Source of the DNA: a virus
Direction: 5' to 3' (one strand)
Length of the DNA stretch: 64,000 nucleotides
IMG/VR virus record: IMGVR_UViG_3300017782_000007
Location: 22,836-86,835 of that record
The translations under genes and the position numbers were made by a program. Positions 2,964 to 58,300 of this stretch are shown here, in pieces; the stretch's first letter is position 1, and each line of letters starts with the position of its first letter. Under the pieces are notes generated by a model. It saw nothing but the letters and a program-made list of their open reading frames with translations, did no database searches and was not told the DNA's origin.

Positions 2964-4571
2964 CTAACCGAATGGATTAGCTTCATGTGCCTGTGTAGGC
3001 TCTTCTTCGTGAATAGTACATTCAGTCATGATTATCATAGAAGCAGCTGATACTGCATTCTCAATAGCAGAGGTAACTACTAATGTAGGATCAATAATCC
3101 CCATCTCTCGCATATCCCCAAACTTATCTGTATTGGCATTGTAACCAAAGTTAATGTTCTCGTTGTGGACTACGTTAGCCATGATAATTCCTGCATCTTT
3201 ACCCGCGTTATTAATGATCTCTCTGGCAGGGGCTGTTAAAGCCTCTAATAGGATCTTAGCTCCTAAGTTCTCCTCAGCAAAGCCAAATATAGGGGTTACG
3301 TTAGCAGAAGCATGTAATAAAGCTGTTCCTCCGCCAGGTAAAGTACCAAAGCGAATAGCAGCCTTTACTGCCTGTAAAGCATCGTCAATTCTGTGTTTCT
3401 TCTCTACCATTTCAGCATCAGTAGCAGCCCCTACGTGTAGGATGGCCAAGCCACCAATAAGGTTTGCCATTCTCTCAGAATACTTCTGTGCCATGTAATC
3501 AGATTCTAATGTAGGCATAGCAGCCTTAATCTCCTCCAATCTCTGGGCTACCTGATCCTTAGGTCCTTCCGGCCCTAATAAGGTAGTAGTATTTTGATCA
3601 ATGATAATCTTCTCGGCAGAACCGAAGTGAAATGATTGAATATCTTGTTGTGATATCCCTAGTTCCTTAGTGATTAAGGTAGCTCCGGTAGCGATAGCTA
3701 AGTCCTTCATGAACTCAGTTCTAATCTCACCGTAGTAAGGTGCCTTAACACAAACAACAGGAATACCTCTTAGTTTGTTAGTAATAGTAGATTCTAATGC
3801 CTGAGCCTCAACCTCAGTGCCGATAATAACTAATGGTCTCTTCTGGGCCATAGCCAGATTCATACAATTAACTGTTACCTTAGGATCTCTTACTTTGTCG
3901 TTGATTAAGACAATTAATGGATTATCATACTCTACTGAGTGCTCACCAGTGTTAACAAAATAAGGAGAGATAAATCCCTTCTCTAATTGCATACCTTCTG
4001 TGAACGTAGTATACGTATCATTTGTCTTAGATTCTTGTACTAGAATAACTCCATCCTTAGTTACCTTATCCATAGCCTCAGCTATTAGTTTCCCAATCTT
4101 AGCATCATTGTTAGCAGAGATAGTAGCAATAGCTTCTATACTCTCCTTAGACTCTGTTACGGGCTCAGATAACTTATTAATTTCTTCTAGTATGTGTGGA
4201 AGTATTTTCTCAATACCTCTCTTTAAATCGATTGGATTAGCTCCGGCAGCTATTAATTTCTCCGCTCTTTCTATGATGGCCTGGGCCAATATAGTAGAGG
4301 TAGTAGTACCGTCACCAGCAATCTTAGCTGTTTTAGCAGCAGCCTGTTTAATAACTTGAGCACCTAGGTTTTCAATGTAATCTTCTAGTATGATCTCAGA
4401 GGCTACTGTTACCCCGTCCTTAGTGACTACAGGGTTCGCGAATGGTTTGTTGATAATCACATTTCTTCCCTTAGGTCCTAATGTAATCTTCACTGCCTTA
4501 GCTAGTGTATCAACTCCTTTTTTTAATTTGGTTCTTGCTTCTTGGTTAAATGTTACTTTCTTAAAAGCCAT
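2964..4571 (-). CDS. groEL: Group I chaperonin GroEL
   Basis: TLGPKGRNV, TKDGVTVA, AGDGTTT, VKAPYYG, PGGGTALL, GIIDPT motifs; no GGM tail. Confidence 0.97.
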   Translation of the reverse strand: MAFKKVTFNQEARTKLKKGVDTLAKAVKITLGPKGRNVIINKPFANPVVTKDGVTVASEIILEDYIENLGAQVIKQAAAKTAKIAGDGTTTSTILAQAIIERAEKLIAAGANPIDLKRGIEKILPHILEEINKLSEPVTESKESIEAIATISANNDAKIGKLIAEAMDKVTKDGVILVQESKTNDTYTTFTEGMQLEKGFISPYFVNTGEHSVEYDNPLIVLINDKVRDPKVTVNCMNLAMAQKRPLVIIGTEVEAQALESTITNKLRGIPVVCVKAPYYGEIRTEFMKDLAIATGATLITKELGISQQDIQSFHFGSAEKIIIDQNTTTLLGPEGPKDQVAQRLEEIKAAMPTLESDYMAQKYSERMANLIGGLAILHVGAATDAEMVEKKHRIDDALQAVKAAIRFGTLPGGGTALLHASANVTPIFGFAEENLGAKILLEALTAPAREIINNAGKDAGIIMANVVHNENINFGYNANTDKFGDMREMGIIDPTLVVTSAIENAVSAASMIIMTECTIHEEEPTQAHEANPFG

Positions 4572-25099: not shown

Positions 25100-25327
25100 A
25101 TGTTCGCAATAGCAACAAAAAAGAAGGTTTATATCACTCCAGAACACTATGAATTGTACGAAAAAGAATTCCAAGCCGGAACCTATGTACTTTATCATAA
25201 AACTGGTAAATATAGAACTTTCGTAGGGATTGTAGGGATCCCTCACACAGCTTGTCCCACTAAGACGGTGTTAGTATCGCCTTTAAGAGAAACATATTTC
25301 GTCACTTTAAATCATAAATATCAATGA
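25100..25327 (+). CDS. Hypothetical protein
   Basis: 75 aa ORF coupled to the MoxR gene. Confidence 0.65.
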   Translation: MFAIATKKKVYITPEHYELYEKEFQAGTYVLYHKTGKYRTFVGIVGIPHTACPTKTVLVSPLRETYFVTLNHKYQ

Positions 25328-26343
25328 CAAAAGAATTTTTAGACAAATTAAACAAGATTGATTTATCTCAAAGATTTATCAAGTCTGAACGATTTACCCG
25401 AGCCTTTGTATCAGCTCTCTCATTGGGAGAACATGCCATGTTTTATGGTAGAGGGGGACACGGTAAATCAGAGATGGCTATGGAAGCTTTTGCACAAGTT
25501 GGTATTGATCCATTTGTACTCTCCTTCCATGAAAATACTACAATTGAAGAATTATTTGGAGGGATTGATCCTGAAGAATGGAAGAAAACAGGAAAGATTA
25601 AATATCTTTTTGAGAACTCGATGTTTAACCACCAGTATGTAATTGCAGAAGAAGCATTTGATGCTCCTGGAATCGTATGGGCTTCTATTAAAGATGCTTT
25701 AACTTCAGGACATGTTAGATTTGGTAATGATACATTCGAAATCAAAACTAAGTCTATCTTATTCTTAACAAACAGATCTAAGGAAGAAGTAGTTGAGGAT
25801 AACTCTGTAGAAGCATTTATGCAAAGAATTGTATTCAATTTAAAAGTTGAATGGGATTCATACACACCTGAAGACTACTCTGATTTATTAGAGTGTGTCT
25901 TTAAAGATAGAAATGAACAATTTGCTACTATCATCTCAGATATGTCTGCTGTTTCAGAGGAAGATTTTATCTCTCCAAGAACATGTGTTAAGGCATATAA
26001 AGCATATATTACCTTAGGGATAGATTGCTTACAAGAGTTTGAAGGGTTTTCAGTTGATAAAGTTGAAAGAATGAAGGATAGACTAGTTAAATTAGAGCAA
26101 ATCAAAACTCAAAGAGAGAGATTAAATGCTTTTGGAGCTACTCTTCATGAAATTCGAAAAGGGAGTATCAAATTCAGTCAGGAAGCAACAATGAAAATCA
26201 GATTATTAAAAGAATTTCAATCTAAATTGAAAGCTTTGAAAATCTCTGATAGTTTATTTCCTGAGAAAAGTGAAATGATGAGAGATGTAGATGCATTGAG
26301 AAAGAAATTAGTTGAGTTATCAATAAATCTTCCTAAATCATGA
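25324..26343 (+). CDS. MoxR/RavA-family AAA+ ATPase
   Basis: GRGGHGKSE Walker A, TTIEELFGG, IAEEAFDA Walker B, LTN sensor; adjacent vWA gene. Confidence 0.85.
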   Translation: MTKEFLDKLNKIDLSQRFIKSERFTRAFVSALSLGEHAMFYGRGGHGKSEMAMEAFAQVGIDPFVLSFHENTTIEELFGGIDPEEWKKTGKIKYLFENSMFNHQYVIAEEAFDAPGIVWASIKDALTSGHVRFGNDTFEIKTKSILFLTNRSKEEVVEDNSVEAFMQRIVFNLKVEWDSYTPEDYSDLLECVFKDRNEQFATIISDMSAVSEEDFISPRTCVKAYKAYITLGIDCLQEFEGFSVDKVERMKDRLVKLEQIKTQRERLNAFGATLHEIRKGSIKFSQEATMKIRLLKEFQSKLKALKISDSLFPEKSEMMRDVDALRKKLVELSINLPKS

Positions 26344-27950
26344 GAGCAACAATACCTTTAAACGGATATATTCCACCTGATGAAGATGATATTAGATATT
26401 TTTGTAATCAAGAGAATTACAAACATAAGGTATCAACTGAATTAATACAAGAACTTTGTAATTTCTATGTTGGAGGCATGGCTAGCTATGTTCCTACTTC
26501 TACAGTAGATAAAGAAGATGTAAAATATGTATCTAATGTACATAGATTACTTGAGAATCTTCCTTCTAATACCTTTAAAGGTTCTCCCTTGGCTAAATCT
26601 GTTCAAACAGCAGTGGCTATTAATTCTCTAAACAACAGTATTCTTAAAAAGAAACAACGTAGAGCTGTTAGAATGGACAGAGAAATTGCAGAATTACAAA
26701 GGAGACAACAAGAGTATCAAGATTTGTCAGACTCTGGTGATTATAGCCCAGAGGAAAGTGATGATTTCAGATCTTCCAAGAGTGATATAAAAGAATATGA
26801 AGAGGACATAAGAGATAAGAAAAAGAAGTTAGATAAAGAGATAGAAAAACTTTTAAAACTTCTGGAATCTGAAGATAATCCTATGGAAGATTGTAATGAT
26901 CCTGAAGGTTTAGCTGATGCTATTAGCCAATTAGCCTCTGATTGCGATCTTCTTGAACAAGCAGAAAAAGAAAAGAAAGAGAAAAGTAAGAAGGGTGAAG
27001 ATGGCCAAGAAGGAGAGGGTGAAGGAGAGGGGGAAGGAGACGGTGAAGGAGAAGAAACAGAAGGTACTCCTATGAATTCTGATGAGAGATTACATGATAA
27101 ACATCCAGAAGACATCATGGTTAGTGCAGAGGCAATGGGAGTAAATATAATCAATAGTGATTTTAGTCCTATTAAATTCTCTGAAGTAACTACTGAAGAA
27201 GCTAACATCTTGAAGAAACTATCTGTAGTTAACTCTTTCAATGGTAGTATAGCTGGCGAAGCTAAGATTAAGAGGAAAAGAAAAGTCTCTTCTAAGAAAA
27301 GAGGTAAACTTAAAATGGAATCTTATAAGCAAGTTAACCAAGCCAGCTTCGTTGAACGTATGATGCCTGGATTCGATAAGAAGTTCATCCAAAAAGATGT
27401 ACTAATTAAAGATAAGTATGTATCTGAGGTTTGTAAGCAAACTTTAGTACTACTTATAGATGATTCAGGTAGTATGAATTCTGAGTGGAAGATTGGGTGG
27501 GTTAAGGCATTAGTATTAAATAGATTAACAGCTGTTATGAAAGGAGACGCTACTCTTTATATCTGTACTTTTGAAGAAGAATTAGATCCTAACTGGGTTA
27601 AGGTAGGTACTAAGGCCCAAGCCAAAGATTACTGGAAATTATTTGATAGACAAGTTGGATTCAATAGAGGTAATACTGATATTGAGAAGGCTGTCACACA
27701 TACAATAGAGCAAATAGACAATGGTAAGCTTATCGGAGTTGATTATGATGATACTGCTACTATTAGTCTGAAGAAAGAAAGGCCACAAATATGTGTTATA
27801 AATGATGGCCAAGATTACATTGATAAAGATTATTCTCCTAAGATAATAACTCATGGTTTTATTTTAGGCAGAGATAATATAGAGATGAAAATCATGTGTG
27901 AACGATCTGGAGGTATATACCATAGAATCGGTCACGTTGACATTTATTAA
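26340..27950 (+). CDS. vWA (MIDAS) domain protein, MoxR partner
   Basis: LLIDDSGSM, RGNTDI, VINDGQD; (GE)n acidic linker. Confidence 0.88.
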   Translation: MRATIPLNGYIPPDEDDIRYFCNQENYKHKVSTELIQELCNFYVGGMASYVPTSTVDKEDVKYVSNVHRLLENLPSNTFKGSPLAKSVQTAVAINSLNNSILKKKQRRAVRMDREIAELQRRQQEYQDLSDSGDYSPEESDDFRSSKSDIKEYEEDIRDKKKKLDKEIEKLLKLLESEDNPMEDCNDPEGLADAISQLASDCDLLEQAEKEKKEKSKKGEDGQEGEGEGEGEGDGEGEETEGTPMNSDERLHDKHPEDIMVSAEAMGVNIINSDFSPIKFSEVTTEEANILKKLSVVNSFNGSIAGEAKIKRKRKVSSKKRGKLKMESYKQVNQASFVERMMPGFDKKFIQKDVLIKDKYVSEVCKQTLVLLIDDSGSMNSEWKIGWVKALVLNRLTAVMKGDATLYICTFEEELDPNWVKVGTKAQAKDYWKLFDRQVGFNRGNTDIEKAVTHTIEQIDNGKLIGVDYDDTATISLKKERPQICVINDGQDYIDKDYSPKIITHGFILGRDNIEMKIMCERSGGIYHRIGHVDIY

Positions 27951-29068: not shown

Positions 29069-29073
29069 AATTA

Positions 29074-29123
29074 TTCCGTGGACCAAATGGTCGTAACTTC
29101 CTTTGCGGGAAGCACGGAAACTA
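29074..29123 (+). ncRNA. Three-way-junction motif, copy C
   Basis: TTCCGTG GACC-AAAT-GGTC GTAA CTTCC-TTTGCG-GGAAG CACGGAA A-CTA. Confidence 0.65.
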
Positions 29124-29335
29124 TACACATCTATATTATTAGGACTGGATATCTCATTTTGTATTTGAGTATTACGCTAATAGATGCATTGTAAGCCACG
29201 AAATGTGGATTCTGGATAGATTGTCTCTCTAGTCCAGAAAGAGGGAGGAGAAGTCCTTAAAACGCCTTGTAGCAGGATTTTCAACCCTGTGTGACGGTGA
29301 TGACCTCAAAATGCTTTAATATTAAGCACACTAAA

Positions 29336-29415
29336 ACGTCAAAGAGTGTATGTGGGTTCGAATCCCATCTTCCGTGCTGGAAGTATGCCAATTGGAAGAG
29401 CAACTTATTATCCGT
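29336..29415 (+). ncRNA. Circularly permuted tRNA mimic (YrlA Y-RNA-like)
   Basis: T-arm GTGGG-TTCGAAT-CCCAT, closed acceptor hairpin CTTCC-GTGCT-GGAAG, TA, D-arm TGCC-AATTGGAA-GAGCA, closing GAGT/ACTT. Confidence 0.5.
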
Positions 29416-29688
29416 AATTATTCCGTATTGTTAAAGGTAACTATTGTAGAAACAGTCTCATTAGCTGTGGAACAAGATAGAGTTTAACATTAGAATATTA
29501 ATCGAGAGGGTAGAAAGCCCAGTAATAGAGTGACACCTAATCTATAGATAACGATTCAACCTTAGCGGGCTTGATGTTTTATCTTTAGCGCATCAAAACA
29601 AAACAGCTCACTGCTAGTAGCTAAGCGATTCTGATATAATCGTGAAACCTGTGCAATTCAGGAAGTGATATCAAAGACATTTTTTAAC

Positions 29689-29754
29689 GGGGGTCTATAG
29701 TAAGAGCTCGTTAGAGTACCGGACTTTTAATCCGGGGGAGACTATATATTCCCA
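29689..29754 (+). ncRNA. T-armless tRNA-Lys(UUU)-like element
   Basis: D-like GCTC-GTTA-GAGT; perfect anticodon arm CCGGA-CTTTTAA-TCCGG; closed by TATAGT/ACTATA and GGGGGT/ATTCCC; no T-loop. Confidence 0.55.
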
Positions 29755-29767
29755 TTACTTTAATTAC

Positions 29768-30205
29768 ATGAATTACACAAAAATTAGGAAACCAAGACGC
29801 AAAATGAAACTTGTAGAACCTTGGTTACAAAGTATTATTAAAGACAATGAATTCGTAGTATTACGTGATAAGCGCACTAAAAAAGCGTTACATGTAAGTT
29901 ATACGGAAGACGGTCTAAAGTGGGCCTTGGACCCACGGACATCCAAATCTCTTTATTTCAAAGATGCTTATCTTTCCCACGGCCGTGTTGGTGGTGAGGG
30001 CTGGAACGGTTTGTTCCGTAAAGAGAGAGATCCAAATACCATAGTCGAAAAGTTCATACCAATGAATCACGTAAGGACCCGCAAAGATGGTATCGAGTAT
30101 GTCGATACAGTCAACCAATCCTTAGAATTCAAAGCAGTGGATAGAGCTTTGCGAATGTTAACCAAATCTCAGACGAGATTACTTGATAATTTTTCTGATA
30201 ACTAA
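29768..30205 (+). CDS. Hypothetical protein
   Basis: 145 aa ORF inside the RNA cluster. Confidence 0.7.
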   Translation: MNYTKIRKPRRKMKLVEPWLQSIIKDNEFVVLRDKRTKKALHVSYTEDGLKWALDPRTSKSLYFKDAYLSHGRVGGEGWNGLFRKERDPNTIVEKFIPMNHVRTRKDGIEYVDTVNQSLEFKAVDRALRMLTKSQTRLLDNFSDN

Positions 30206-30214
30206 ATTTATACT

Positions 30215-30286
30215 CTTGTTAAGACGTAAGGTGCGGCAACATGTTTGAAACACATGTCTGTTCAGGTTCGATACCTGGTGCGAAGA
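30215..30286 (+). tRNA. Degenerate tRNA-Phe(GAA)-like
   Basis: Anticodon arm CATGT-TTGAAAC-ACATG; T-arm TCAGG-TTCGATA-CCTGG; acceptor only 5 of 7 paired; poor D-arm. Confidence 0.45.
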
Positions 30287-30293
30287 GTTAATA

Positions 30294-30347
30294 GTACTGG
30301 GAGTATAACTATTGTGACATAATAGTGAACTAGGGTTCGAATCCCTT
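30294..30347 (+). pseudogene. Acceptor-less tRNA-Val(GAC)-like remnant
   Basis: GTACT-GGG-AGTAT, CTATT-GTGACAT-AATAG, AGGG-TTCGAAT-CCCT; no acceptor stem found. Confidence 0.4.
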
Positions 30348-30497
30348 GCCGAAATAAATTTAGTTTGAAGTATCTTGAATGACGTATTTAATGCTTAGGG
30401 CTCAGCAGAGATAGACGAAGAATACCTTCTCTCCTAGATCTGGAGGACGTACCCTAGGTAGCCTATGGCTTCCTTTAAATAATTCAATTTTTTATTT

Positions 30498-30839
30498 GTG
30501 AATAGCTTAAACCTGAAGACGCGTTTTAGTCAACTGGATGTGAAGTAAAGAGTACGACACAAATTGGATTACCTACACCGAGCGGTAGAATTCATCCATA
30601 CCAGAGAAACTATACGTATAACGAGCGAGGAGCCTCTTCTAAAAATAGCACCTGTCCGTTTGACAGAAGAAATAACATCATAGGTTTTATATTGATGGCT
30701 AAGCCAACCAACTGGGTGTTGGAGCTTAGTTTATATAGATTATATTGTAGGTAGTGGTGGTAGGCGACTATACCCTCAAGCCAGGGGTGAAGTTGATACA
30801 ATATATTCTCACTATAAAGTCAATAATTTTGATGTTCAC
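30498..30839 (+). ncRNA. Long structured RNA (about 340 nt), unassigned
   Basis: No plus-strand ORF in track; terminal GTGAATA/TGTTCAC stem and at least six internal helices. Confidence 0.45.
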
Positions 30840-30891
30840 GTAGAAGATAATCAAGTCTGAGAGTTAGATTTTTATTACTGTAAATTAGTTT

Positions 30892-31485
30892 ATGAAACAA
30901 ATTATATTGAATTTTGTCTTATTAATAGCATTAGCAGCAACTAATGTTGGAGTTTGGCAGAATACTACTGTTATAGAATCAACTGATTCTGAATTACGAT
31001 CGAGTCTCACCTTGGTAACCCAAGAATTAGAATGTGTAGAAGAAGAACTGTCTTCGTTGAAAATGGATTACGAAGATTTCAAGTTAAAAGATACCACATT
31101 ACTAGAGACTTTTGGCCTAGAGGAGCTTTCATCGCCAGATGAGAAGAACTCTTGGAAGAAAATGGATGGAACTTTTGTCTCCCTGTTAAAGGAAGCGGAA
31201 GCGGTATCCGGATTTAGATGGCGAATCAACTCTGGTTATAGAACTTGTTCACACAACAAGAACTTAATTAAGAGAGGATACAAAGCCGCTAAAAATAGTT
31301 GGCATATGGACGGAAATGCCGTAGATATTTCTGCATCTACATCTGCCTATAGGAAACTTATTCTTAACTCATTAAAACATATTGGAATAGTGAAGGGTAT
31401 AAAGGTATACCCAGCACATATTCATGTTCAATGGAAAAACGATCATGATTTATGGAATCAAAAAGATTTAATTGCAATGAAATAG
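30892..31485 (+). CDS. Peptidase M15 (YcbK/MepK-like) Zn endopeptidase with signal anchor and coiled coil
   Basis: INSGYRT...NSWHMDGNAVD...AHIHVQ. Confidence 0.85.
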   Translation: MKQIILNFVLLIALAATNVGVWQNTTVIESTDSELRSSLTLVTQELECVEEELSSLKMDYEDFKLKDTTLLETFGLEELSSPDEKNSWKKMDGTFVSLLKEAEAVSGFRWRINSGYRTCSHNKNLIKRGYKAAKNSWHMDGNAVDISASTSAYRKLILNSLKHIGIVKGIKVYPAHIHVQWKNDHDLWNQKDLIAMK

Positions 31486-50691: not shown

Positions 50692-50868
50692 ATGCTAATA
50701 TTATCAGCAGTTTTAATATATGGAGTGTATAAATTATGGACTTGGAAATTTACTTGTCCTTATTGTAGTAGTCAAAATACATTCTACGAACCTCCATACG
50801 ATGATGCTTACTTTTCATTAGATGAAATGTTTCATTGTTATGATTGTGCCAAAAAAGAATTACCTTAA
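50692..50868 (+). CDS. Small TM plus Zn-ribbon protein (58 aa)
   Basis: MLILSAVLIYGVYKLW...CPYC...CYDC; below track cutoff. Confidence 0.55.
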   Translation: MLILSAVLIYGVYKLWTWKFTCPYCSSQNTFYEPPYDDAYFSLDEMFHCYDCAKKELP

Positions 50869-53800
50869 GACATCGAGGAAATCAGTTTCCTCATCATTAT
50901 ACTCATCAAAAATCATTTGAGTTTGTCTTAAACCAGATAACACAGGGAGTGAGTTGATTAAAGCTTTTTTACCTTTAACAGCTCCTTCTCTTGTTATCTC
51001 TCCATTCCATATACCTTCTGTTAACCAACTAGATACTGCAGTTAAGAACTTTAAGGCCTTGCCAGCAGCAGGGATTGGTTTCTCTATGAACCTAAATAAA
51101 TCAATAGGATTAGCTCCCTGAGTAATATCCTCATACATTAAACGATTCCATCTCTTAGCATAATACTTATCCTCATCATCCTCAGGTATCGCATGACTCA
51201 TTACATACAATAATACAGCCATTGCTGTTGTAGCTAACATGTGAGAGAATTGAGCTTTCTCTTCCTGACTAAGGTTTTCCCAGAGATAAACATCACTACG
51301 ATACCCTTCTCTAAACCTATCTGAATTCCTACCTAAGTAAGCTCCAGCTACATTAGCCATCAATAAGAATCTACCTTGTTGAACTCTCTCCTGCCAAGTA
51401 TAAACATCCATACCTTCATTCTGTTCTATGTTACCATCCTTATCTAATTGAGGAACCCAGTCCCCCAATGACTCAGATAACGATCGTTTCATCCATAGAT
51501 TATTAATCATCTCTGGTAAGAACTTCTTAAACTGAACTACAAACTGTCCCCAGATTTCTAATTCGATAGCCATCTTTTCTTCAGATCTATATGAACCGTG
51601 AATACGTTCATGAATCTTTTTCATATGTGCTATCTCTCTAGGTTCAAAGCCAAGAAGATCTCTATAAGTTCCATCAGGATCTTGTATTCTTCCTCTTGAT
51701 GGCCCTGTATATTCATACTCACCATTCTGTTCATTTAACTTATATGCATCCCACATATTAGTATCCCCTACTTTCCTAGCTTTCATTTGCATGTACATAG
51801 TCATAAGAGAGCCATAGTTCTCAAACATAGTATGGAGCATATATAAATGACCTGAATCAACTAAAGGGTTTCTAGCCCCTAGTAGCTCTGAACTGTTAAC
51901 CTTATAATCAAAATTATCAGCGATATAATTAATTTGTTTGGCCATGCCCCACATCTTATTTGAATCAGCCTTACCAGACCATACAGCAGGTAAATAAGAA
52001 GAGAAGTATGCAGCATTAAATGCTAACATGTCTTTCATTCTTAAATCTACTTTAGACTCATCTCCACCTGCTATCAATACCATCTCATTCTTAACTGCTT
52101 CAAGTGCGTTTAATGATATAATCAAAGCACCGTTCGCTGCACCAGCTCCTGCTTTAAGCATCATAGCTGTCATAGTGGTCCATGCTTTCATCATGTAAAC
52201 TGCCTTAGTATAGTTAACCTCATTAATACCTGGATTCAGTATTCCATGCTTAACCCACCAAGAATCCTCATCAACATTAAACTCAATCTTTCTTTTAAGA
52301 TCATCTTCTCTGAATCGTTGATCTAATACTTGTAACATTACTTGATCATCAAAGAACTGAACTGTATTCTTATACATAAGACTACCTTTAGTATCTGTCT
52401 TTGCCTGAAGATAACCTTTAATACCTTTAGATAAAGAGTATAATTCATCCATCTCTTGTTTACGAATCATGTTATTCATAAACTCTAAATATCCATGTTG
52501 CATATTTAATGAATGATTACCACTAGTTATGATAGAAGAATCATCCTCAATCAAATACTTAGTTCTTACTCCACCTTCAAAGGTATCTAGCTTCTGAAAG
52601 TTCTGTTCAAAGAAAGTAGTAAAATACTTATAGAACATATGTCTAGCAGTAGCCTTAATAGGTAACCAATCTGATTCCTGAATATCACCTAAAGTTTGTG
52701 GCATTCTAGGAGCAAAATCTTCATTTAAGTTAGAAGGTTTCTTTAAATAACTATACATAGGTATCTGATCTCCATTCTCTGTAGTAACAGTAGTATTAGC
52801 GACAGTAGCATATTCTATATGCATATTCTTTCTAATATGATCTCTGTATAATATCTGGGCAGTAGACATATGTCTAGTGGATTTAGATATAGGGTCATAA
52901 TAAGTATTAGCAAGATTCATAAACTGACCTTCCTTATTAGGATTAGTAGCCCATAAGAATGCATATAGCTCCTTAGTCTTAAGGCCCATGCCAAGAACAT
53001 TATTAATACCTACGTTAGGTATTCCTTTGCGCTTTAAATACTCATCTAGTACAGGCTTAAACATCTTATCATTCTCATGTCTAACTGCTCTCATTCTTTT
53101 CTCCATGATATCTTTCTTATTACGCCAAAGCTTAACGAAAGTTTTAATCAGAGGGTTCTTAACCTTAGAGAAGTTATCTGTAAGCCTCTCATACATAGTC
53201 ATATCTGAATCAGCTCTTAACTCATGCCCAACTTCTAACTGCATACCTGTCTCTTTGTTTAATTCCAAAGCCAGCTTAGCTAGTTGCTGAGATTGTTTCT
53301 TAAGTGCAGCCATCTTAGGCTTATTCAAATCCTCATCAGAGTATTTAGAATGAATAGCAGATAATCTAGCATGAACCCATACATTTTTCTGGCTAAGGTC
53401 CATACCTCTTAATTGATCTTGAAACTGATTAACAACTGTATCTTGCCCAACATAACTGTTAGGATTAAGTAAACCACGTTGTCTGATCTCTTTCATTTCT
53501 TCAGGAGTCTTAACTGACTCTAAGTACTTACCTAATGTACCTAAATAAGCATTGACATCGACATTATAAATATTGATACCATTGTTATTATTTATATAAG
53601 GTACTGCTATTCTCTCAAACTTAGCATCAGGTAGATTCTCTCTAACCATGAATGCTTTAATCATCATCTCTAACTTGGCTCTGGATATCTTTGAATCTGT
53701 TAAACCCCAGTTAGCACCAAATCTTAAGATTCTAGTAGAATCTAAGCCTTTCATAGTATTAGATGTCTTAAAATCTAATAGAGTTAATTCTCCTACTCTG

Positions 53801-55353
53801 TTCTGAAGTATACCCTCAAAGTGAGAACCTATTCCAAACACGTCTGATTTAAGAACAACATCTTCTTTAATTCTATGTTCAGTTCCTTCTTTATAAGGAT
53901 TATCTTCAGCTACAGCTCCTATATATTTCTGAATACCTAATTCAGTCATAGCTTCCGGTAAAGCTTTTCTAAGATCCTCAAATACTTGTTTTCTTATATC
54001 TCTACCTGTTAATCTTCTATACTTATCGTGTAGTCTATTAAACTTAGATTGAAATGTAGTTAAGCCCAGATTATCCTTAGCATTAACATTCATCTCTGCC
54101 ATGATCCACATATTAATCATCTTATTATAAAGAGTTGTCGCTTCTAATAGTTGTCTATGTTTATCTACTGCTTGGTCAAAATTTATCTCTGTACCTTGAG
54201 CAGCATCAAATATAGTACCAGTTTCGGGATCTACATTACCAAACTCTTTTAAAGCTGCATACTCAGCAGGAGAATAATCCTCCCCTTGATATCTTACCTT
54301 AAAATTATCTTTTCTAAAATCCCCTATAGAGGGAACTATATTATCTGCAAATGTTATAGTATCATCAGAGCTATCATATACTCCTCCTTGTTCAGTACTT
54401 ATATCTTCTAATTTTACTAGATGATCAGGTACTGTTTCTTGATTAAATTCTAATCCAGTTAAGGTATTGGTATCTATAAATACTGACTTATTACCTAACA
54501 TTATATCAGATAAATCTTCTAGAGTCATAAACCCTAGAGAATCAGGTCTTAGATAGGTCTGTGAGCCTCTTAGAGCCGATATAAGAGCATTTAACGTGCT
54601 CTGAATATATTCTATTAACTTTTTCATAAAAGTCGCTCTACCAAGCTTAAAAGCCGTTATACGGCCTAAGTCATCTACGATCTGCTCTTCAATCAGATCT
54701 TCTTCGGAGAGGTGCGGGTTCCTCTCTCTTACATCTGAGCTGACCTCAGTAGTTTTAACTAGCCCTTCGTATACCTTGGGGTTCTCTACTTTAATAGCTC
54801 TTATAAATGGATGCCCGAATTCATGGAACGCAGTCTCCTTGTTAGCCCTAGCCAGATTAATATAGACGGTATCGTCCTTGGCCCAGCCAGCCTTAGTGTT
54901 ATTTGGTTGATTAACTATCTCTAGATTGATGTCAGGGAATACAGTTCGAAGATGACCTAAAACAGTTTTTAAACTGGCTAAGGCATTATCGTTTGATACT
55001 TGTATCCGTCTCTTTCTATTAGCTAATTCCGATTTAGGATTATATAATAGTGGGAACTCTTGACCATTGTTCTTCTTGAATACCCATTGGTTATTAGATT
55101 TATATAGCTGAGGTTCTCCATGTGAGTTTAGTTTACCTACACGTACCTTAGCACCACCTATCTTAGCTACCCAATCACCAAACCAGTTCTTAAAAGGCTC
55201 AGTGAATATAGTGCCCCACATTAATAAAGCATTCTCTTTATTGGAGTCTATATTGTTTTTTATTTTAGTATATAGAGGCGAGGGTGTCCCCCGGCCAATA
55301 GAATTGACCGAGGTGATTTCACCACCAGCGTCTCTGTTTATTAAACACGCCAT
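50860..55353 (-). CDS. Giant virion cargo protein with zincin-like and PD-(D/E)xK-like domains
   Basis: 1497 aa; MACLINRD start, FHEFGH (HExxH), LLDFKTS, late TM-like segment; adjacent to the vRNAP gene. Confidence 0.7.
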   Translation of the reverse strand: MACLINRDAGGEITSVNSIGRGTPSPLYTKIKNNIDSNKENALLMWGTIFTEPFKNWFGDWVAKIGGAKVRVGKLNSHGEPQLYKSNNQWVFKKNNGQEFPLLYNPKSELANRKRRIQVSNDNALASLKTVLGHLRTVFPDINLEIVNQPNNTKAGWAKDDTVYINLARANKETAFHEFGHPFIRAIKVENPKVYEGLVKTTEVSSDVRERNPHLSEEDLIEEQIVDDLGRITAFKLGRATFMKKLIEYIQSTLNALISALRGSQTYLRPDSLGFMTLEDLSDIMLGNKSVFIDTNTLTGLEFNQETVPDHLVKLEDISTEQGGVYDSSDDTITFADNIVPSIGDFRKDNFKVRYQGEDYSPAEYAALKEFGNVDPETGTIFDAAQGTEINFDQAVDKHRQLLEATTLYNKMINMWIMAEMNVNAKDNLGLTTFQSKFNRLHDKYRRLTGRDIRKQVFEDLRKALPEAMTELGIQKYIGAVAEDNPYKEGTEHRIKEDVVLKSDVFGIGSHFEGILQNRVGELTLLDFKTSNTMKGLDSTRILRFGANWGLTDSKISRAKLEMMIKAFMVRENLPDAKFERIAVPYINNNNGINIYNVDVNAYLGTLGKYLESVKTPEEMKEIRQRGLLNPNSYVGQDTVVNQFQDQLRGMDLSQKNVWVHARLSAIHSKYSDEDLNKPKMAALKKQSQQLAKLALELNKETGMQLEVGHELRADSDMTMYERLTDNFSKVKNPLIKTFVKLWRNKKDIMEKRMRAVRHENDKMFKPVLDEYLKRKGIPNVGINNVLGMGLKTKELYAFLWATNPNKEGQFMNLANTYYDPISKSTRHMSTAQILYRDHIRKNMHIEYATVANTTVTTENGDQIPMYSYLKKPSNLNEDFAPRMPQTLGDIQESDWLPIKATARHMFYKYFTTFFEQNFQKLDTFEGGVRTKYLIEDDSSIITSGNHSLNMQHGYLEFMNNMIRKQEMDELYSLSKGIKGYLQAKTDTKGSLMYKNTVQFFDDQVMLQVLDQRFREDDLKRKIEFNVDEDSWWVKHGILNPGINEVNYTKAVYMMKAWTTMTAMMLKAGAGAANGALIISLNALEAVKNEMVLIAGGDESKVDLRMKDMLAFNAAYFSSYLPAVWSGKADSNKMWGMAKQINYIADNFDYKVNSSELLGARNPLVDSGHLYMLHTMFENYGSLMTMYMQMKARKVGDTNMWDAYKLNEQNGEYEYTGPSRGRIQDPDGTYRDLLGFEPREIAHMKKIHERIHGSYRSEEKMAIELEIWGQFVVQFKKFLPEMINNLWMKRSLSESLGDWVPQLDKDGNIEQNEGMDVYTWQERVQQGRFLLMANVAGAYLGRNSDRFREGYRSDVYLWENLSQEEKAQFSHMLATTAMAVLLYVMSHAIPEDDEDKYYAKRWNRLMYEDITQGANPIDLFRFIEKPIPAAGKALKFLTAVSSWLTEGIWNGEITREGAVKGKKALINSLPVLSGLRQTQMIFDEYNDEETDFLDVLR

Positions 55354-58300
55354 TATTTACAGTTTTCGTATTGATGTAAAGCAGCTTTAACAGTGCTTTC
55401 TAATACAGTCATATTTAAAGATTTATTTATTTCTTCTCCACGCATCATATTGATAGGAGCTCCTCCAGGAACAGCAGTAGCCTTCTCTCCTATTAGAGTC
55501 TCAATAGTTGCAGCTAGTCTACCCTCATTAGATAATACTAGAACCTTCTCTCCCCTAATGTTATCTAGGTGAGCGAATCTTTCTTTAATCAAAGAAGGCT
55601 TAACAGGGTTAAGAATCTTACGAAGATCATACCCTCTATTAGTAACCAGATGGTCTAAGTCTAGCTTATATCCTTCCGTATTATTAACAGATAATAATCT
55701 ACGATATAAAGGAGTTTTAACTATACTAGGGTTATCTGATTGATAAGGTACATCATCTAATCTAAAGTATATATAGCCGCCCTTCTTAACTATCTTAGGC
55801 GCAGTATAGTATACCTTAGGAGACATAGTAGCATCATGATAAACTTCTCCTTTTTCTAGCTTAGCTATCTTATTCGTAGTAGGCTCAACCTTTAAGAATT
55901 TATTAGCTGGTATCATAGAGAAGTTATTGTTTAAGAATTGAACAGTAAAGTCATTCTTAACCATCTTAGCTACATCACTAAGCTCTAAAGCATTATTAGT
56001 ATTCTCAAATATAGCTTCTAGTTTATCCTGCATAGTAGTAACCACAGCAGCAAATAACTCCTCTGGTATTACTCTGGCATAGGATCTACGGCTAAACGAC
56101 ATACCCTCTTTTAATATAGAATACTTAAGCAAATCTTTCTGCAAGTCAGACCAAGTTCCATCCTCATTCTTTAAAGACTTAAATGCATTCTTATACATTA
56201 CAGCTTCTAAAGGATCTGCTGTTTTATCAGCAGTAAAGACTAAGCTTATCTCACCTGTGTTACTAGATTCAACTGAAAGGTTATCTAAGAATAGATTACT
56301 CTCATCAGCTCGTTCAGATTTAGCTTTGAATAAAGCATCGGCTAATCTTTCTTCGAATGCTTGTCTACCTGTATAAGTAAAGAATTCTGTTTCATATGGC
56401 TCAGTATTATCAGTAGATAAGTCTAACTGTTCTCCATCTAACATAATAGAGAGATCCGTCATCATATACTTAATAAACTCTGCTCTAATGTGCTCCTCAA
56501 TTTCCTCATCTTTCTTAAGATTATTACTTCTTAAATCAGAATCTACATCAGTAAGTCCTAAATCCTTCACAATCTCATCAGACATTAGTTGTAACTGAGC
56601 TGAGTTTCTCATTGTTATCTGAGATAACACTCGCTCTAAGTTTAACATAACTCTATAAGATTCATAGATATTTGGAATAGATAATAAATTAGAGTTCTGG
56701 AACATAAACTTCTCAGATACCTCGGTATCTAATTGTTGTTTAGCTCCTAGTGTAGAATTCTCTATACTTCGGTTAACTAGTCTAGTAGAATAGTCTTGCT
56801 TAAGCAACATCTTAGCTGCTGTTTGCTTAACCTTATACTTCTTAACTGGATCTTGTATCTCTTGTATAGAAGGAACCTTATCTAGAATTGCTTCTAAGTT
56901 GTCTTCTACTCTATCTATAGTACCACTGAATGAAGATTTCTTTGGCCCAGCCACCTTAGTTAATAGGTGATTTAACCATGCTCTAACTCCGCTATACGTA
57001 GGTGGTATATCTTTAACAGGAGCAGCTACTGTTGCAGCACTCTGTATAGAAGTACCAGCAAAGATCAATCCTCGAATTGTCTTTAATGCTTTATATTGAG
57101 TAATTAAGTCAGTGTGAGAATTTACTTCTCTATGCTTTAATTTCTCTTGATCCCAGTAGTAAGAGTATACACTAGATAATTCTTTAGCATTTACATCTCC
57201 TTCTAGATCAAGTCGTACATTCTCATGTATCTCTTTACTAAACTTACTAATAGCTTCTTTATGAGCTTCCATAAAGGTGTCTCTTGGCATAGCCAATAAC
57301 TCATCTGTTATAGATACTATACCTCTTACAGCTAGTACTTGTAAAGCTTCTTTGTAAATTAATTCTTTTTGAATCTCACTCATAGACTCTGTTACAGTGT
57401 CAACAGTTAAACTCTCAAATCTCTCATTAGTAATTTCTAATACCTTAGGTTGATTGAATAGTAAAGTAATCGTATGAATAGGAATCCCTAATGCTACAGC
57501 AGCTAAGAATGAATCAGCATTTCTATTGGATAAGTTAGTTACAGCTAATATCTGCTCCTTAACATTATCAATAGCAGCATTAATAAGGCTATCTAATGTC
57601 TCCCATACAGAAGTGACCTTTTGCCCTTCCTCGACAGTACTCATTACTCTCTTACCGTCTACTATAGAATCGTACTCGTTCTCAACAATAGAATCATATT
57701 TAACTCCGCCTATACTAATATCATCTAAATGAGATTGGATAATCTCATTATCAGAACTTAACTTAGGTTCTTCTCGCTCAATAGGCATTAAGTCTCCTAT
57801 TGGTTGTTTATGAATTAAATTGCCCTCATCGTCCTTTTCTCGTAAAGCCAATCGCTCTTCTTCAGTATATACCTTACCGCCTACAGCTTCCCATTTAGTT
57901 GGCTTAGCTCCCATTACTACGTGAGCAGCTCCCTTAGAGAATGTAGCAGCAATACCTGTCATAGTATTACCAGAGAAAGTATTAAAGTGAATACGTTGTT
58001 GATGTAGTACTCTTTCTAAGTTAATATCTCCAAACAAATATTCATTTCTATTCCCCTCAGTAAACCCTCTTAGCCTAGCCAACATATCAAATACTGTCTC
58101 TTCTCCGTTCTCCTCAGTCTTTCCGTTAAGTCTGTCCATGGATACTAAGTTCAACATTAAGTGTCTGTTCGCTAAGTCCTGAGCCATCTGTATATAGATG
58201 TCTACCATATGATTACGATTAGCCATTTGATAGTACTTGATTAAAGTCTTTTCTATCTTATCTAATCTCTCGAATGATGTCAATCTATTATCGTCATTTC

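What the first reader, a model, noticed from the sequence alone, without database searches (positions are those of the whole stretch)
29689..29754. Isolated tRNA-Lys(UUU) anticodon arm in a T-armless scaffold
Seen: a textbook Lys arm CCGGA-CTTTTAA-TCCGG with a short D-like hairpin, closed by an extended stem ending CCCA, and no T-loop. Known: tRNA-Lys(UUU) is the target of the PrrC anticodon nuclease and of PARIS AriB. Inference: a decoy substrate for anticodon nucleases or modifying enzymes, or an armless tRNA. It complements the class I elements, which have a T-arm but no anticodon.
Basis: partly seen in the sequence, partly recalled or inferred. Interest (0 to 1): 0.7.

Follow-up and report, generated by a model that had tools for sequence, protein, structure and literature searches.

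The report
Elbow-less lysine-tRNA mimic in phage
A marine phage carries a 66-base stretch that copies the decoding half of a lysine tRNA but lacks the part needed for protein synthesis. Big unrelated phages carry the same design, so it may be bait for enzymes that read or cut that tRNA, but it could still be a broken gene.

Summary
Observation confirmed. Window 29689-29754 holds a perfect tRNA-Lys(UUU) anticodon arm (29719-29735), a 4-bp D-like hairpin with a 4-nt loop (29706-29717) and a 12-bp closing helix ending CCCA. There is no T loop.

It is more than chance:
- Rfam tRNA scores 20.2 bits (E 0.005 in the genome).
- A 24-nt run is identical to true phage tRNA-Lys genes.
- Simulated genomes rarely give such a helix (3/500) or loop (2/500).
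- An independent virome assembly carries it letter for letter, so it is not a misassembly.

No standard finder calls it a tRNA. The same design recurs in jumbo phages as one payload of a covarying, multi-copy "handle" RNA family that Rfam does not list; at least one of those arrays also holds a true tRNA-Lys(UUU). My copy shares the payload, not the handle.

- **Best reading (0.4):** a tRNA-Lys-derived, elbow-less, non-chargeable mimic that offers the Lys anticodon domain to proteins that read it. No binding or cleavage is shown.
- **Rivals:** relic of a decaying tRNA cluster (0.3; neighbours are degenerate Phe- and Val-like tRNAs); processing or 5'-UTR element (0.17).

No relative was close enough to test conservation. 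Earlier notes of this scan report Lys-arm mimics in other phages.

The parts
29689..29701 (+). 5' strand of the 12-bp closing helix (GGGGGT-C-TATAGT). Its first bases resemble a tRNA-Lys acceptor start plus U8-A9.
   Evidence: Minimum-free-energy fold; pair probabilities 0.92-0.96 in isolation. A helix of 12 or more pairs appeared in 3/500 simulated genomes.
29702..29705 (+). 4-nt linker AAGA between the closing helix and the D-like hairpin.
29706..29717 (+). D-like hairpin GCTC-GTTA-GAGT: 4 bp with a 4-nt loop that lacks G18 G19.
   Evidence: Aligned as the D arm by Rfam tRNA and by model R1.
29718..29718 (+). Single A, equivalent to tRNA position 26.
29719..29735 (+). tRNA-Lys(UUU) anticodon arm CCGGA-CTTTTAA-TCCGG.
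   Evidence: Pair probability 0.997, and kept in every context folded. The same 17-mer is the anticodon arm of ARAGORN-called tRNA-Lys(UUU) genes in four viral contigs and occurs in at least 120 prokaryote genome loci; the ones I aligned have full tRNA-Lys context.
29736..29740 (+). Linker GGGAG at the variable-loop position. GGG is shared with true phage tRNA-Lys genes.
29741..29753 (+). 3' strand of the closing helix (ACTATA-T-ATTCCC). It occupies the place of the T arm and has no TTCRANY loop.
29754..29754 (+). Unpaired A after CCC, in a discriminator-like position (A73 of tRNA-Lys).
   Evidence: The assignment is an inference.
29697..29762 (+). Alternative cloverleaf-like reading. Acceptor-like stem 29697-29703 with 29755-29761 (6 of 7 pairs) and a T-position hairpin 29736-29753 (5 bp, 8-nt loop).
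   Evidence: Rfam tRNA alignment. It is 5-7 kcal/mol weaker than the closing-helix fold. ARAGORN's mitochondrial mode calls a TV-loop tRNA-Lys at 29697-29756, but makes 21 such calls in the window.
29768..30205 (+). Downstream ORF of 145 aa with no known family. Its ATG lies 14 nt after the element.

Best explanation
The stretch derives from a tRNA-Lys(UUU) gene. It kept the D stem, the whole anticodon arm and the GGG.../...CCC-A ends. It lost both elbow partners: the D loop is cut to 4 nt and the T arm is replaced. It gained a 6-bp extension that turns the acceptor into a 12-bp closing helix.

Such an RNA cannot be a normal substrate for EF-Tu, the ribosome or the CCA enzyme, but it still shows the tRNA-Lys anticodon domain. 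I read it as a non-chargeable mimic, made from the plus-strand transcript just upstream of ORF 29768. It would offer that domain to proteins that recognise it and so compete with host tRNA-Lys. The likeliest targets are host anticodon nucleases of the PrrC, RloC, AriB or Cas13 kind. Less likely targets are anticodon-modifying enzymes or LysRS.

- **Shown:** the sequence and fold, the tRNA-Lys kinship, the absence of tRNA elbow features, its presence in an independent sample, and the recurrence of the design in other phages.
- **Inferred:** that it is transcribed, cut out or stable, and everything about binding or baiting.
For: 1. **tRNA-Lys kinship.** Rfam tRNA 20.2 bits. 24 nt are identical to true phage tRNA-Lys genes. 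The canonical loop CUUUUAA is intact.
2. **Joint loss of both elbow partners**, with the stems kept.
3. **The closing helix is built from changes on both strands** and is rare by chance, 3/500.
4. **The same architecture occurs in four other viral contigs.** It has a closing helix, a GCUC-N4-GAGY hairpin, one purine, a Lys arm and no T arm.
   - L155 and L158 lie inside ARAGORN-called tRNA arrays; the L155 array also holds a true tRNA-Lys(UUU) gene.
   - L208 and L214 lie in ORF-free gaps with no tRNA array beside them.
   - The L155/L158 type belongs to a handle family with 3-4 or more copies per genome.
   - Its anticodon-like stem covaries at all 5 pairs.
   - Its handle is 98.7% paired, with two-sided changes at 5 of 8 pairs in 20 sequences.
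5. **A model of that family finds only this spot in the window**.
6. **AriB is reported to recognise the anticodon stem-loop of tRNA-Lys** (PMC11464382), so an arm-only bait is conceivable.
7. **The sequence is identical in an independent virome**.
Against: - There is no conservation or covariation for this copy. The closest relatives found share about 30% DNA polymerase identity and carry nothing like it. Homologues of the downstream gene have no such element upstream.
- It shares the payload but not the handle of the jumbo-phage family.
- It lies among other degenerate tRNA-like pieces, which also fits decay.
- The closing helix is not robust to flanking sequence.
- There is no evidence of a discrete RNA.
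- The stem CCGGA/UCCGG was found in only 2 of 301 sampled genomes of the phylum of L079, presumably Bacteroidota. If the host belongs there, the stem may not match the host tRNA.
- No anticodon nuclease or host is known for this phage.
Confidence: 0.4

Rival explanations
1. Relic. A tRNA-Lys(UUU) gene of a former phage tRNA cluster lost its T arm and D loop and is decaying without function.
For: - The genome has no canonical tRNA.
- The 1.8-kb block around it holds Phe(GAA)-like and Val(GAC)-like pieces with good anticodon and T arms but broken acceptors.
- Rfam aligns the element end to end to tRNA, with 6 of 7 acceptor pairs.
- No conservation could be shown.
Against: - The D stem and anticodon arm are flawless while the T arm is unrecognisable, which is not even decay.
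- The 12-bp helix needs matching changes on both strands and is rare by chance.
- The same elbow-less design is conserved and covaries in other phages; at least one of them (L155) also has a working tRNA-Lys(UUU) gene.
Confidence: 0.3
2. Cis element of the message. It would be a tRNA-like punctuation or 5'-UTR structure that directs cutting by RNase P, Z or E, protects the 5' end, or controls translation of ORF 29768. This is the role proposed for the other tRNA-like modules between plus-strand genes in this phage.
For: - It ends 14 nt before the ATG, on the coding strand, in a long run of co-oriented genes.
- The genome holds several other intergenic tRNA-part look-alikes.
- The 12-bp helix has the length of the acceptor plus T stack that RNase P and RNase Z measure (textbook knowledge; PMC4919913 was listed but not read).
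- The closing helix and the local hairpin 29736-29753 exclude each other.
Against: - It lacks the T loop and elbow that RNase P and Z use.
- A perfect Lys anticodon loop is not needed for such a role.
- Homologues of the downstream gene have no such leader.
- The U tract after the hairpin is weak.
Confidence: 0.17
3. A working, T-armless tRNA-Lys that is charged and used in translation.
For: - The anticodon loop, A at the discriminator-like position and a paired stem are present.
- ARAGORN in mitochondrial mode calls a TV-loop tRNA-Lys.
Against: - That mode makes 21 calls in 64 kb, so it is noise-level.
- Standard ARAGORN and the Rfam gathering score both fail.
- T-armless tRNAs need a dedicated EF-Tu, known only from some animal mitochondria (textbook knowledge).
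- AAA is only 53% of Lys codons, so there is no special demand.
Confidence: 0.04
4. Chance hairpin, assembly artefact, or a phage attachment site copied from a host tRNA-Lys gene.
For: Generic modules of a 4-bp hairpin plus an anticodon-like arm arise about 1.5 times per random genome.
Against: - The exact loop and the 12-bp helix are each under 1% in simulations.
- There is a 24-nt identity to tRNA-Lys genes.
- An identical independent contig exists.
- No tyrosine integrase was found in the record.
- Attachment sites normally carry the 3' part of the tRNA, which is the part missing here.
Confidence: 0.03

Closest known systems
Jumbo-phage 'handle' RNAs (AGCC-N-R-U-R-CUUAUUUC ... AG-Y-N-N-GGC), defined here from IMG/VR contigs L155, L158, L240, L252, L279 and others; Rfam does not list them
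   Same: - Several members carry exactly this payload: a GCUC-N4-GAGC hairpin, one purine, a 5-bp arm with loop CUUUUAA, and no T arm, all closed by a long helix with a pyrimidine bulge.
- Rfam sees only tRNA positions 10-42 in them.
- Their other payloads (T arms, a permuted tRNA) mirror the other tRNA-part look-alikes of this window.
   Different: - My element lacks the conserved handle sequence. Model R1 aligns only positions 19-50.
- It is single-copy.
- It lies between protein genes, not inside an array of true tRNAs.
- Kinship versus convergence is open.
Bacterial and phage Y RNAs of the YrlA type with Ro60/Rsr (Rfam RF02553; Chen et al. 2014, PMC4201824)
   Same: - Small RNAs built from tRNA parts on a long stem formed by the two ends.
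- A weak YrlA-like match lies 260 nt upstream, at 29327-29435.
   Different: - No TROVE or DUF2828 gene in the record (DUF2828 did not appear for the 536-aa protein).
- No GNCGAAN0-1G motif in the element.
- YrlA mimics the acceptor, T and D parts and lacks an anticodon arm. This element is the reverse.
Phage tRNAs that defeat tRNA-cutting defences: T5 tRNA-Lys against PARIS AriB (PMC11464382); anticodon-loop variants (PMC10264068); T5 tRNA-Tyr against retron PtuAB (PMC11555353)
   Same: A phage-encoded Lys-type anticodon domain. AriB reads the anticodon stem-loop.
   Different: - Those are complete, chargeable tRNAs that replace the cut host tRNA and carry escape changes in the stem-loop.
- This one cannot be used in translation and keeps the canonical loop, so it could only act as bait or competitor.
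T-armless (TV-loop) mitochondrial tRNAs of nematodes and other animals
   Same: An acceptor-like stem, a D arm and an anticodon arm, with a short strand in place of the T arm. ARAGORN's mitochondrial mode calls it so.
   Different: - Those have 7-bp acceptors and work with a special EF-Tu.
- Here the helix is 12 bp and the D loop is 4 nt.
- No such factor is known in bacteria or phages (textbook knowledge).
Truncated tRNA genes (pseudogenes) in phage tRNA clusters
   Same: Clear tRNA-Lys ancestry, missing parts, and neighbours that are also defective.
   Different: The retained parts are flawless and a new long helix has been added. The design recurs under selection elsewhere.
Anticodon-arm mimics in mRNA leaders, such as the E. 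coli thrS operator that binds ThrRS (textbook knowledge)
   Same: An anticodon-arm copy placed just upstream of a start codon.
   Different: The downstream gene is not a synthetase and has no known family. No ribosome-site overlap is evident.

Membership tests
Canonical tRNA (Rfam RF00005) | Score at or above the gathering score (29 bits); called by ARAGORN | tested here: not met
   20.2 bits. No match at the gathering threshold. ARAGORN finds 0 genes in the window.
Canonical tRNA (Rfam RF00005) | Anticodon arm: 5 bp and a 7-nt loop with U33 and purine 37 | tested here: met
   CCGGA-CUUUUAA-UCCGG at 29719-29735.
Canonical tRNA (Rfam RF00005) | T arm with a TTCRANY loop, and a D loop with G18 G19 (the elbow) | tested here: not met
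   The T position is ACTATATATTCCC and the D loop is GTTA.
Canonical tRNA (Rfam RF00005) | 7-bp acceptor stem followed by a discriminator | tested here: inconclusive
   6 of 7 pairs at 29697-29703/29755-29761. This stem has pair probability below 0.001 against the 12-bp helix.
T-armless mitochondrial-type tRNA | TV replacement loop with a 7-bp acceptor, found above background by a dedicated finder | tested here: inconclusive
   ARAGORN -mt calls a TV-loop tRNA-Lys at 29697-29756, but gives 21 calls in 64 kb.
T-armless mitochondrial-type tRNA | A matching elongation factor that accepts T-armless tRNA | not testable with these tools
   No such factor is known in bacteria or phages. No EF-Tu search was run.
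Jumbo-phage handle RNAs (model R1) | Handle: closing helix GCCNR-U-RCU / AGY-NNGGC followed by CUUAUUUC | tested here: not met
   R1 aligns only model positions 19-50 to 29706-29737. The only CTTATTT-like hit in the window is at E 1.2, at 62344-62394 on the minus strand, which lies inside the 2881-aa ORF listed.
Jumbo-phage handle RNAs (model R1) | Payload: short D-like hairpin, one purine, anticodon-like arm, no T arm | tested here: met
   21.2 bits, E 0.004, posterior probabilities near 1. Compare the members.
YrlA / Y RNA with Ro60 | Ro60 (TROVE) gene within about 4 kb on the same strand | tested here: not met
   No TROVE match in the record. The nearby 536-aa protein has only a weak vWA match, and its homologues cover only that half.
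YrlA / Y RNA with Ro60 | Match to RF02553 and the GNCGAAN0-1G motif near the 5' end | tested here: not met
   The only RF02553 match is a neighbouring element at 29327-29435, 19.5 against 69 bits. No such motif occurs in 29689-29754.
'CNGCAA handle' RNAs reported in earlier notes of this scan | 7-bp closing stem, about 3 nt, then CNGCAA | tested here: not met
   No CNGCAA in or beside the element.
tRNA pseudogene | Descent from a tRNA gene plus loss of parts needed for function | tested here: met
tRNA pseudogene | No selective constraint (free decay in relatives) | not testable with these tools
Phage attachment site in a tRNA gene | An integrase in the phage, and the 3' part of the tRNA carried by the phage | tested here: not met
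   No Phage_integrase match. The element keeps the 5' and middle parts and lacks the T arm.

The most novel reading that the evidence does not exclude
Unrelated phages (this marine phage and several jumbo phages) have independently turned tRNA-Lys genes into elbow-less RNAs. These RNAs show only the anticodon domain and act as decoys or inhibitors of host enzymes that cut or read tRNA-Lys. That would be an RNA-based counter-defence distinct from the known 'replacement tRNA' strategy. In this phage it would be one member of a whole kit of separate tRNA-part mimics: top half, elbow, permuted tRNA and bottom half.
Probability: 0.2. Interest if true: 0.8.

Novelty: new variant of a known kind. Interest (0 to 1): 0.5.

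Why it matters
Phages are known to answer tRNA-cutting defences with complete replacement tRNAs. An RNA that keeps only the part such nucleases recognise, and drops every part translation needs, would be a different tactic: bait instead of spare part.

The design now has several independent examples, one of them a covarying family, so it can be tested directly with a 66-nt transcript. It also shows that standard tRNA finders and Rfam miss a layer of tRNA-derived RNAs in phage genomes.

If it proves to be a relic, it still records how a phage tRNA cluster decays.

Tried and rejected
- **Standard finders.** ARAGORN and Rfam at gathering score find nothing in the window.
- **Relatives.**
  - The downstream ORF gave no viral loci. 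It gave two short metagenome contigs at about 40% identity, which have a 45-nt gap and no element.
  - DNA polymerase gave 21 loci at 24-34% identity, without tRNAs or the arm.
  - An exact scaffold pattern gave nothing.
  - No match in the phage record collection.
A 38-kb contig encoding a 99%-identical neighbour protein (P0005) therefore could not be fetched.
- **Reads.**
  - All runs are contigs, so they show no RNA ends or levels.
  - X4 is only guessed to be RNA. It has a 189-nt contig at 29621-29809, identical to the window, which is not evidence of transcription.
  - X8 and X5 did not cover the element.
  - No variants were seen, so no population covariation is available.
- **Ro60 idea.** No TROVE match. 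The 536-aa protein next to a MoxR ATPase has a weak vWA match only. Its single-sequence AlphaFold model is poor (pLDDT 39). Its homologues cover only the C-terminal half.
- **L214 protein.** The 691-aa protein beside the L214 element has no Pfam match and no relative in this phage.
- **CNGCAA handle.** Absent.
- **Promoter.** TGATATAAT at 29632-29640 is one of only 4 such sites in the genome. That is below my rough composition estimate of about 10, so there is no support.
- **Terminator-like hairpin 29736-29753.** Weak U tract.
- **Host inference from the arm.** The 17-mer occurs in scattered phyla. It is in 2 of 301 sampled genomes of the phylum of L079. The 26-mer is in no prokaryote genome searched.
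- **Attachment site.** No integrase.
- **Literature.** No paper on T-armless or anticodon-arm-only phage RNAs was found.

Full report
**What is there.** The window is bases 22836-86835 of an 86.8-kb IMG/VR phage record, estimated 85% complete.
- The record encodes a large terminase, a GroEL-like chaperonin, a replication module and two giant ORFs.
- Earlier notes of this scan call it a marine crAss-like phage. I did not verify that label.
- The finding lies in a 700-nt ORF-free gap (29069-29767) on the coding strand of a long run of plus-strand genes. It ends 14 nt before the ATG of a 145-aa ORF of no known family.

**Check of the observation.**
- 5' strand of the closing helix: GGGGGT-C-TATAGT (29689-29701).
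- Linker: AAGA.
- D-like hairpin: GCTC-GTTA-GAGT (29706-29717), then one A.
- Anticodon arm: CCGGA-CTTTTAA-TCCGG (29719-29735).
- Linker: GGGAG.
- 3' strand of the helix: ACTATA-T-ATTCCC (29741-29753), then A.

RNAfold gives exactly this three-way junction: -23.1 kcal/mol, z -2.3. No T loop motif is present. ARAGORN and Rfam at gathering score call nothing in the whole window.

**Is it more than chance?** Yes.
- The Rfam tRNA model scores 20.2 bits, E 0.005 in the genome.
- The 24-mer 29714-29737 is identical in genuine tRNA-Lys(UUU) genes of four other viral contigs. Against L009, the D stem GCTC also matches, as does the run from the last D-loop A through the first three Gs of the variable region.
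- In 500 simulated genomes of the same dinucleotide make-up, a short hairpin + 1 nt + anticodon-like arm module was common, about 1.5 per genome.
- A closing helix of 12 or more pairs occurred in only 3 of those genomes, and the exact loop in 2.

**Is it real DNA?** Yes. A 5.6-kb contig from an independent viral metagenome of 2019 covers 29250-31200 without a single difference. That disposes of misassembly. It shows no variation, so it gives no population evidence for constraint.

**Which fold?** Two closures compete.
- Rfam aligns the whole tRNA model. That gives an acceptor-like stem 29697-29703/29755-29761 (6 of 7 pairs, mostly A-U) and a T-position hairpin GGGAG/TTCCC with an 8-nt AT loop.
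- That fold is 5-7 kcal/mol weaker than the 12-bp helix. Its pairs have probability below 0.001 in the isolated 74-mer.
- With longer flanks other folds of equal energy appear, and only the anticodon arm survives in all of them.
- The closing helix is therefore likely only if the RNA is cut out or folds locally. This is unproven.

**Ancestry.** The 5' end GGGTCTATA resembles a bacterial tRNA-Lys start (GGGYCNUUA, acceptor plus U8-A9; compare the true genes aligned). The 3' end CCC-A resembles its acceptor end with discriminator A.
- Relative to a true tRNA-Lys, 6 nt are inserted after position 9.
- The D loop is cut from 8-9 nt to 4 nt.
- The 17-nt T arm is replaced by about 8 nt.
- The inserted bases pair with the replacement to make the extra 6 bp.
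- Both elbow partners (G18 G19 and the T loop) went together, while the D stem and anticodon arm stayed perfect.

This pattern is easier to explain by selection for an elbow-less anticodon domain than by even decay. That is an inference.

**Relatives of the design.** No close relative of the phage was reachable (look-up of encoding contigs closed). I therefore searched IMG/VR for the module itself, GCTC-N4-GAGY-A-N5-CTTTTAA.
- Among 68 loci, four had a paired arm plus a closing helix and no T arm: L155, L158, L208 and L214.
- L155 and L158 lie inside large arrays of true tRNAs in jumbo phages. The L155 array includes tRNA-Lys(UUU) and Lys(CUU); the part of the L158 array that was fetched shows only Lys(CUU).
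- L155 and L158 share a handle, GAGCCTATGCTTATTTC ... AGCTAGGCC.
- Searching that handle and a covariance model built from five members (R1) showed a family with 3-4 or more copies per genome in five phage records.
- Its anticodon-like stem changes on both sides at all five pairs.
- Its handle helix is 98.7% paired, with two-sided changes at 5 of 8 pairs across 20 sequences. The caveat is that this alignment was fitted to the model.
- Payloads are interchangeable: the D hairpin plus Lys arm (one with A33), a UGU-loop arm, bare T arms, and a circularly permuted tRNA.
- Rfam does not list the family. It sees only tRNA positions 10-42 in the L155 member.
- No TROVE or DUF2828 gene was found in those genomes. 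The DUF2828 control rang nowhere, so that negative is weak.

**Relation to my element.** R1, built without my sequence, finds one significant site in the 64-kb window. It is 29706-29737, at 21.2 bits and E 0.004, covering the payload only.
- The element therefore shares the payload design but not the handle.
- L208 and L214 have yet other closing helices and sit in ORF-free gaps on the gene strand.
- I count the element as one of at least four scaffolds carrying the same elbow-less Lys module. Whether they are homologous or convergent is open.
- The payload types of the jumbo-phage family mirror the separate tRNA-part look-alikes that earlier notes list in this window.

**Context that weakens 'isolated'.** 450-600 nt downstream lie two more pieces.
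- A Phe(GAA)-like piece at 30212-30288 has a 6-bp anticodon stem, loop TTGAAAC and a good T arm at 30262-30278, but a mispaired acceptor.
- A Val(GAC)-like piece lies at 30287-30354.
- A weak YrlA-like match lies at 29327-29435.
- This block could be a decaying tRNA cluster.

**Mechanism.** My best reading (0.4) is a non-chargeable mimic of the tRNA-Lys anticodon domain that competes for proteins reading that domain.
- The published fact that AriB of PARIS recognises the anticodon stem-loop of tRNA-Lys and cuts between positions 40 and 41 (PMC11464382) makes an arm-only bait conceivable.
- Known phage answers to such nucleases are complete replacement tRNAs with escape changes (PMC10264068, PMC11464382, PMC11555353).
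- This element keeps the canonical loop and cannot be translated with, which fits bait and not replacement.
- Nothing about binding, cleavage or expression is shown.

The rivals are:
- a relic (0.3);
- a processing or leader element (0.17);
- a working armless tRNA (0.04);
- chance, artefact or an attachment site (0.03; no integrase).

**Other leads closed.**
- No Ro60-like partner. TROVE is absent. The neighbouring 536-aa protein follows a MoxR ATPase and has only a weak vWA match. Its model is poor, and its homologues cover only the vWA half.
- No CNGCAA handle.
- The extended -10 box at 29632-29640 is not part of a recurrent promoter type.
- The arm sequence does not point to a host.
- AAA is 53% of Lys codons, so there is no special demand for this tRNA.
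- I found no paper describing T-armless or arm-only tRNA mimics in phages.
- Earlier notes of this scan report Lys-arm mimics on other handles in other phages. I used them as leads only.

**Verdict.** It is tRNA-Lys-derived and not a working tRNA. The function is unproven. It is a new variant of the tRNA-mimic kind, of moderate interest, and can be tested with a 66-nt transcript.

Noticed in passing
L155:2898-2965 (-), L158:8989-9055 (-), L252:1661-1725 (+), L240:12442-12501 (+), L279:1993-2051 (-), L283-L300: A multi-copy RNA family in jumbo phages, not listed in Rfam. It has a covarying closing helix followed by CUUAUUUC and carries interchangeable tRNA parts: Lys arm, UGU-loop arm, T arm, permuted tRNA, and UUGGG loops. 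There are 3-4 or more copies per genome. No TROVE gene was found.
   Followed up: partly
window 30212-30354: Phe(GAA)-like and Val(GAC)-like tRNA look-alikes. They have good anticodon arms and TTCGA T loops but mispaired acceptors. Only ARAGORN's noisy mitochondrial mode calls them.
   Followed up: partly
window 29327-29435: Weak match to the YrlA Y-RNA model (19.5 bits, E 0.0066 in the genome) with a GGGTTCGAATCCC T arm. No Ro60 gene is in the record.
   Followed up: partly
window 25324-27950: A MoxR-type AAA ATPase gene followed by a 536-aa protein with a weak C-terminal vWA match. Homologues share only the vWA half, and the N-terminal half looks like long helices in a low-confidence model.
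   Followed up: partly
window 2964-4571 (-): A phage-encoded GroEL-like chaperonin (PHROG 5725, E 3e-142) next to the large terminase gene.
   Followed up: no
window 50860-63998 (-): Two giant ORFs of 1497 and 2881 aa with no PHROG match at E 1e-5.
   Followed up: no
L214:5082-5142 (-) and L214:5454-7529 (-): Another elbow-less Lys-arm module in a 310-kb phage contig. It lies just downstream of a 691-aa ORF with no Pfam match, and a tmRNA gene lies 3.4 kb away.
   Followed up: partly
window 30287-30481: A contig from a true metatranscriptome run (X8) covers the Val-like element and its downstream flank without differences. Contigs cannot show RNA ends or prove transcription.
   Followed up: no
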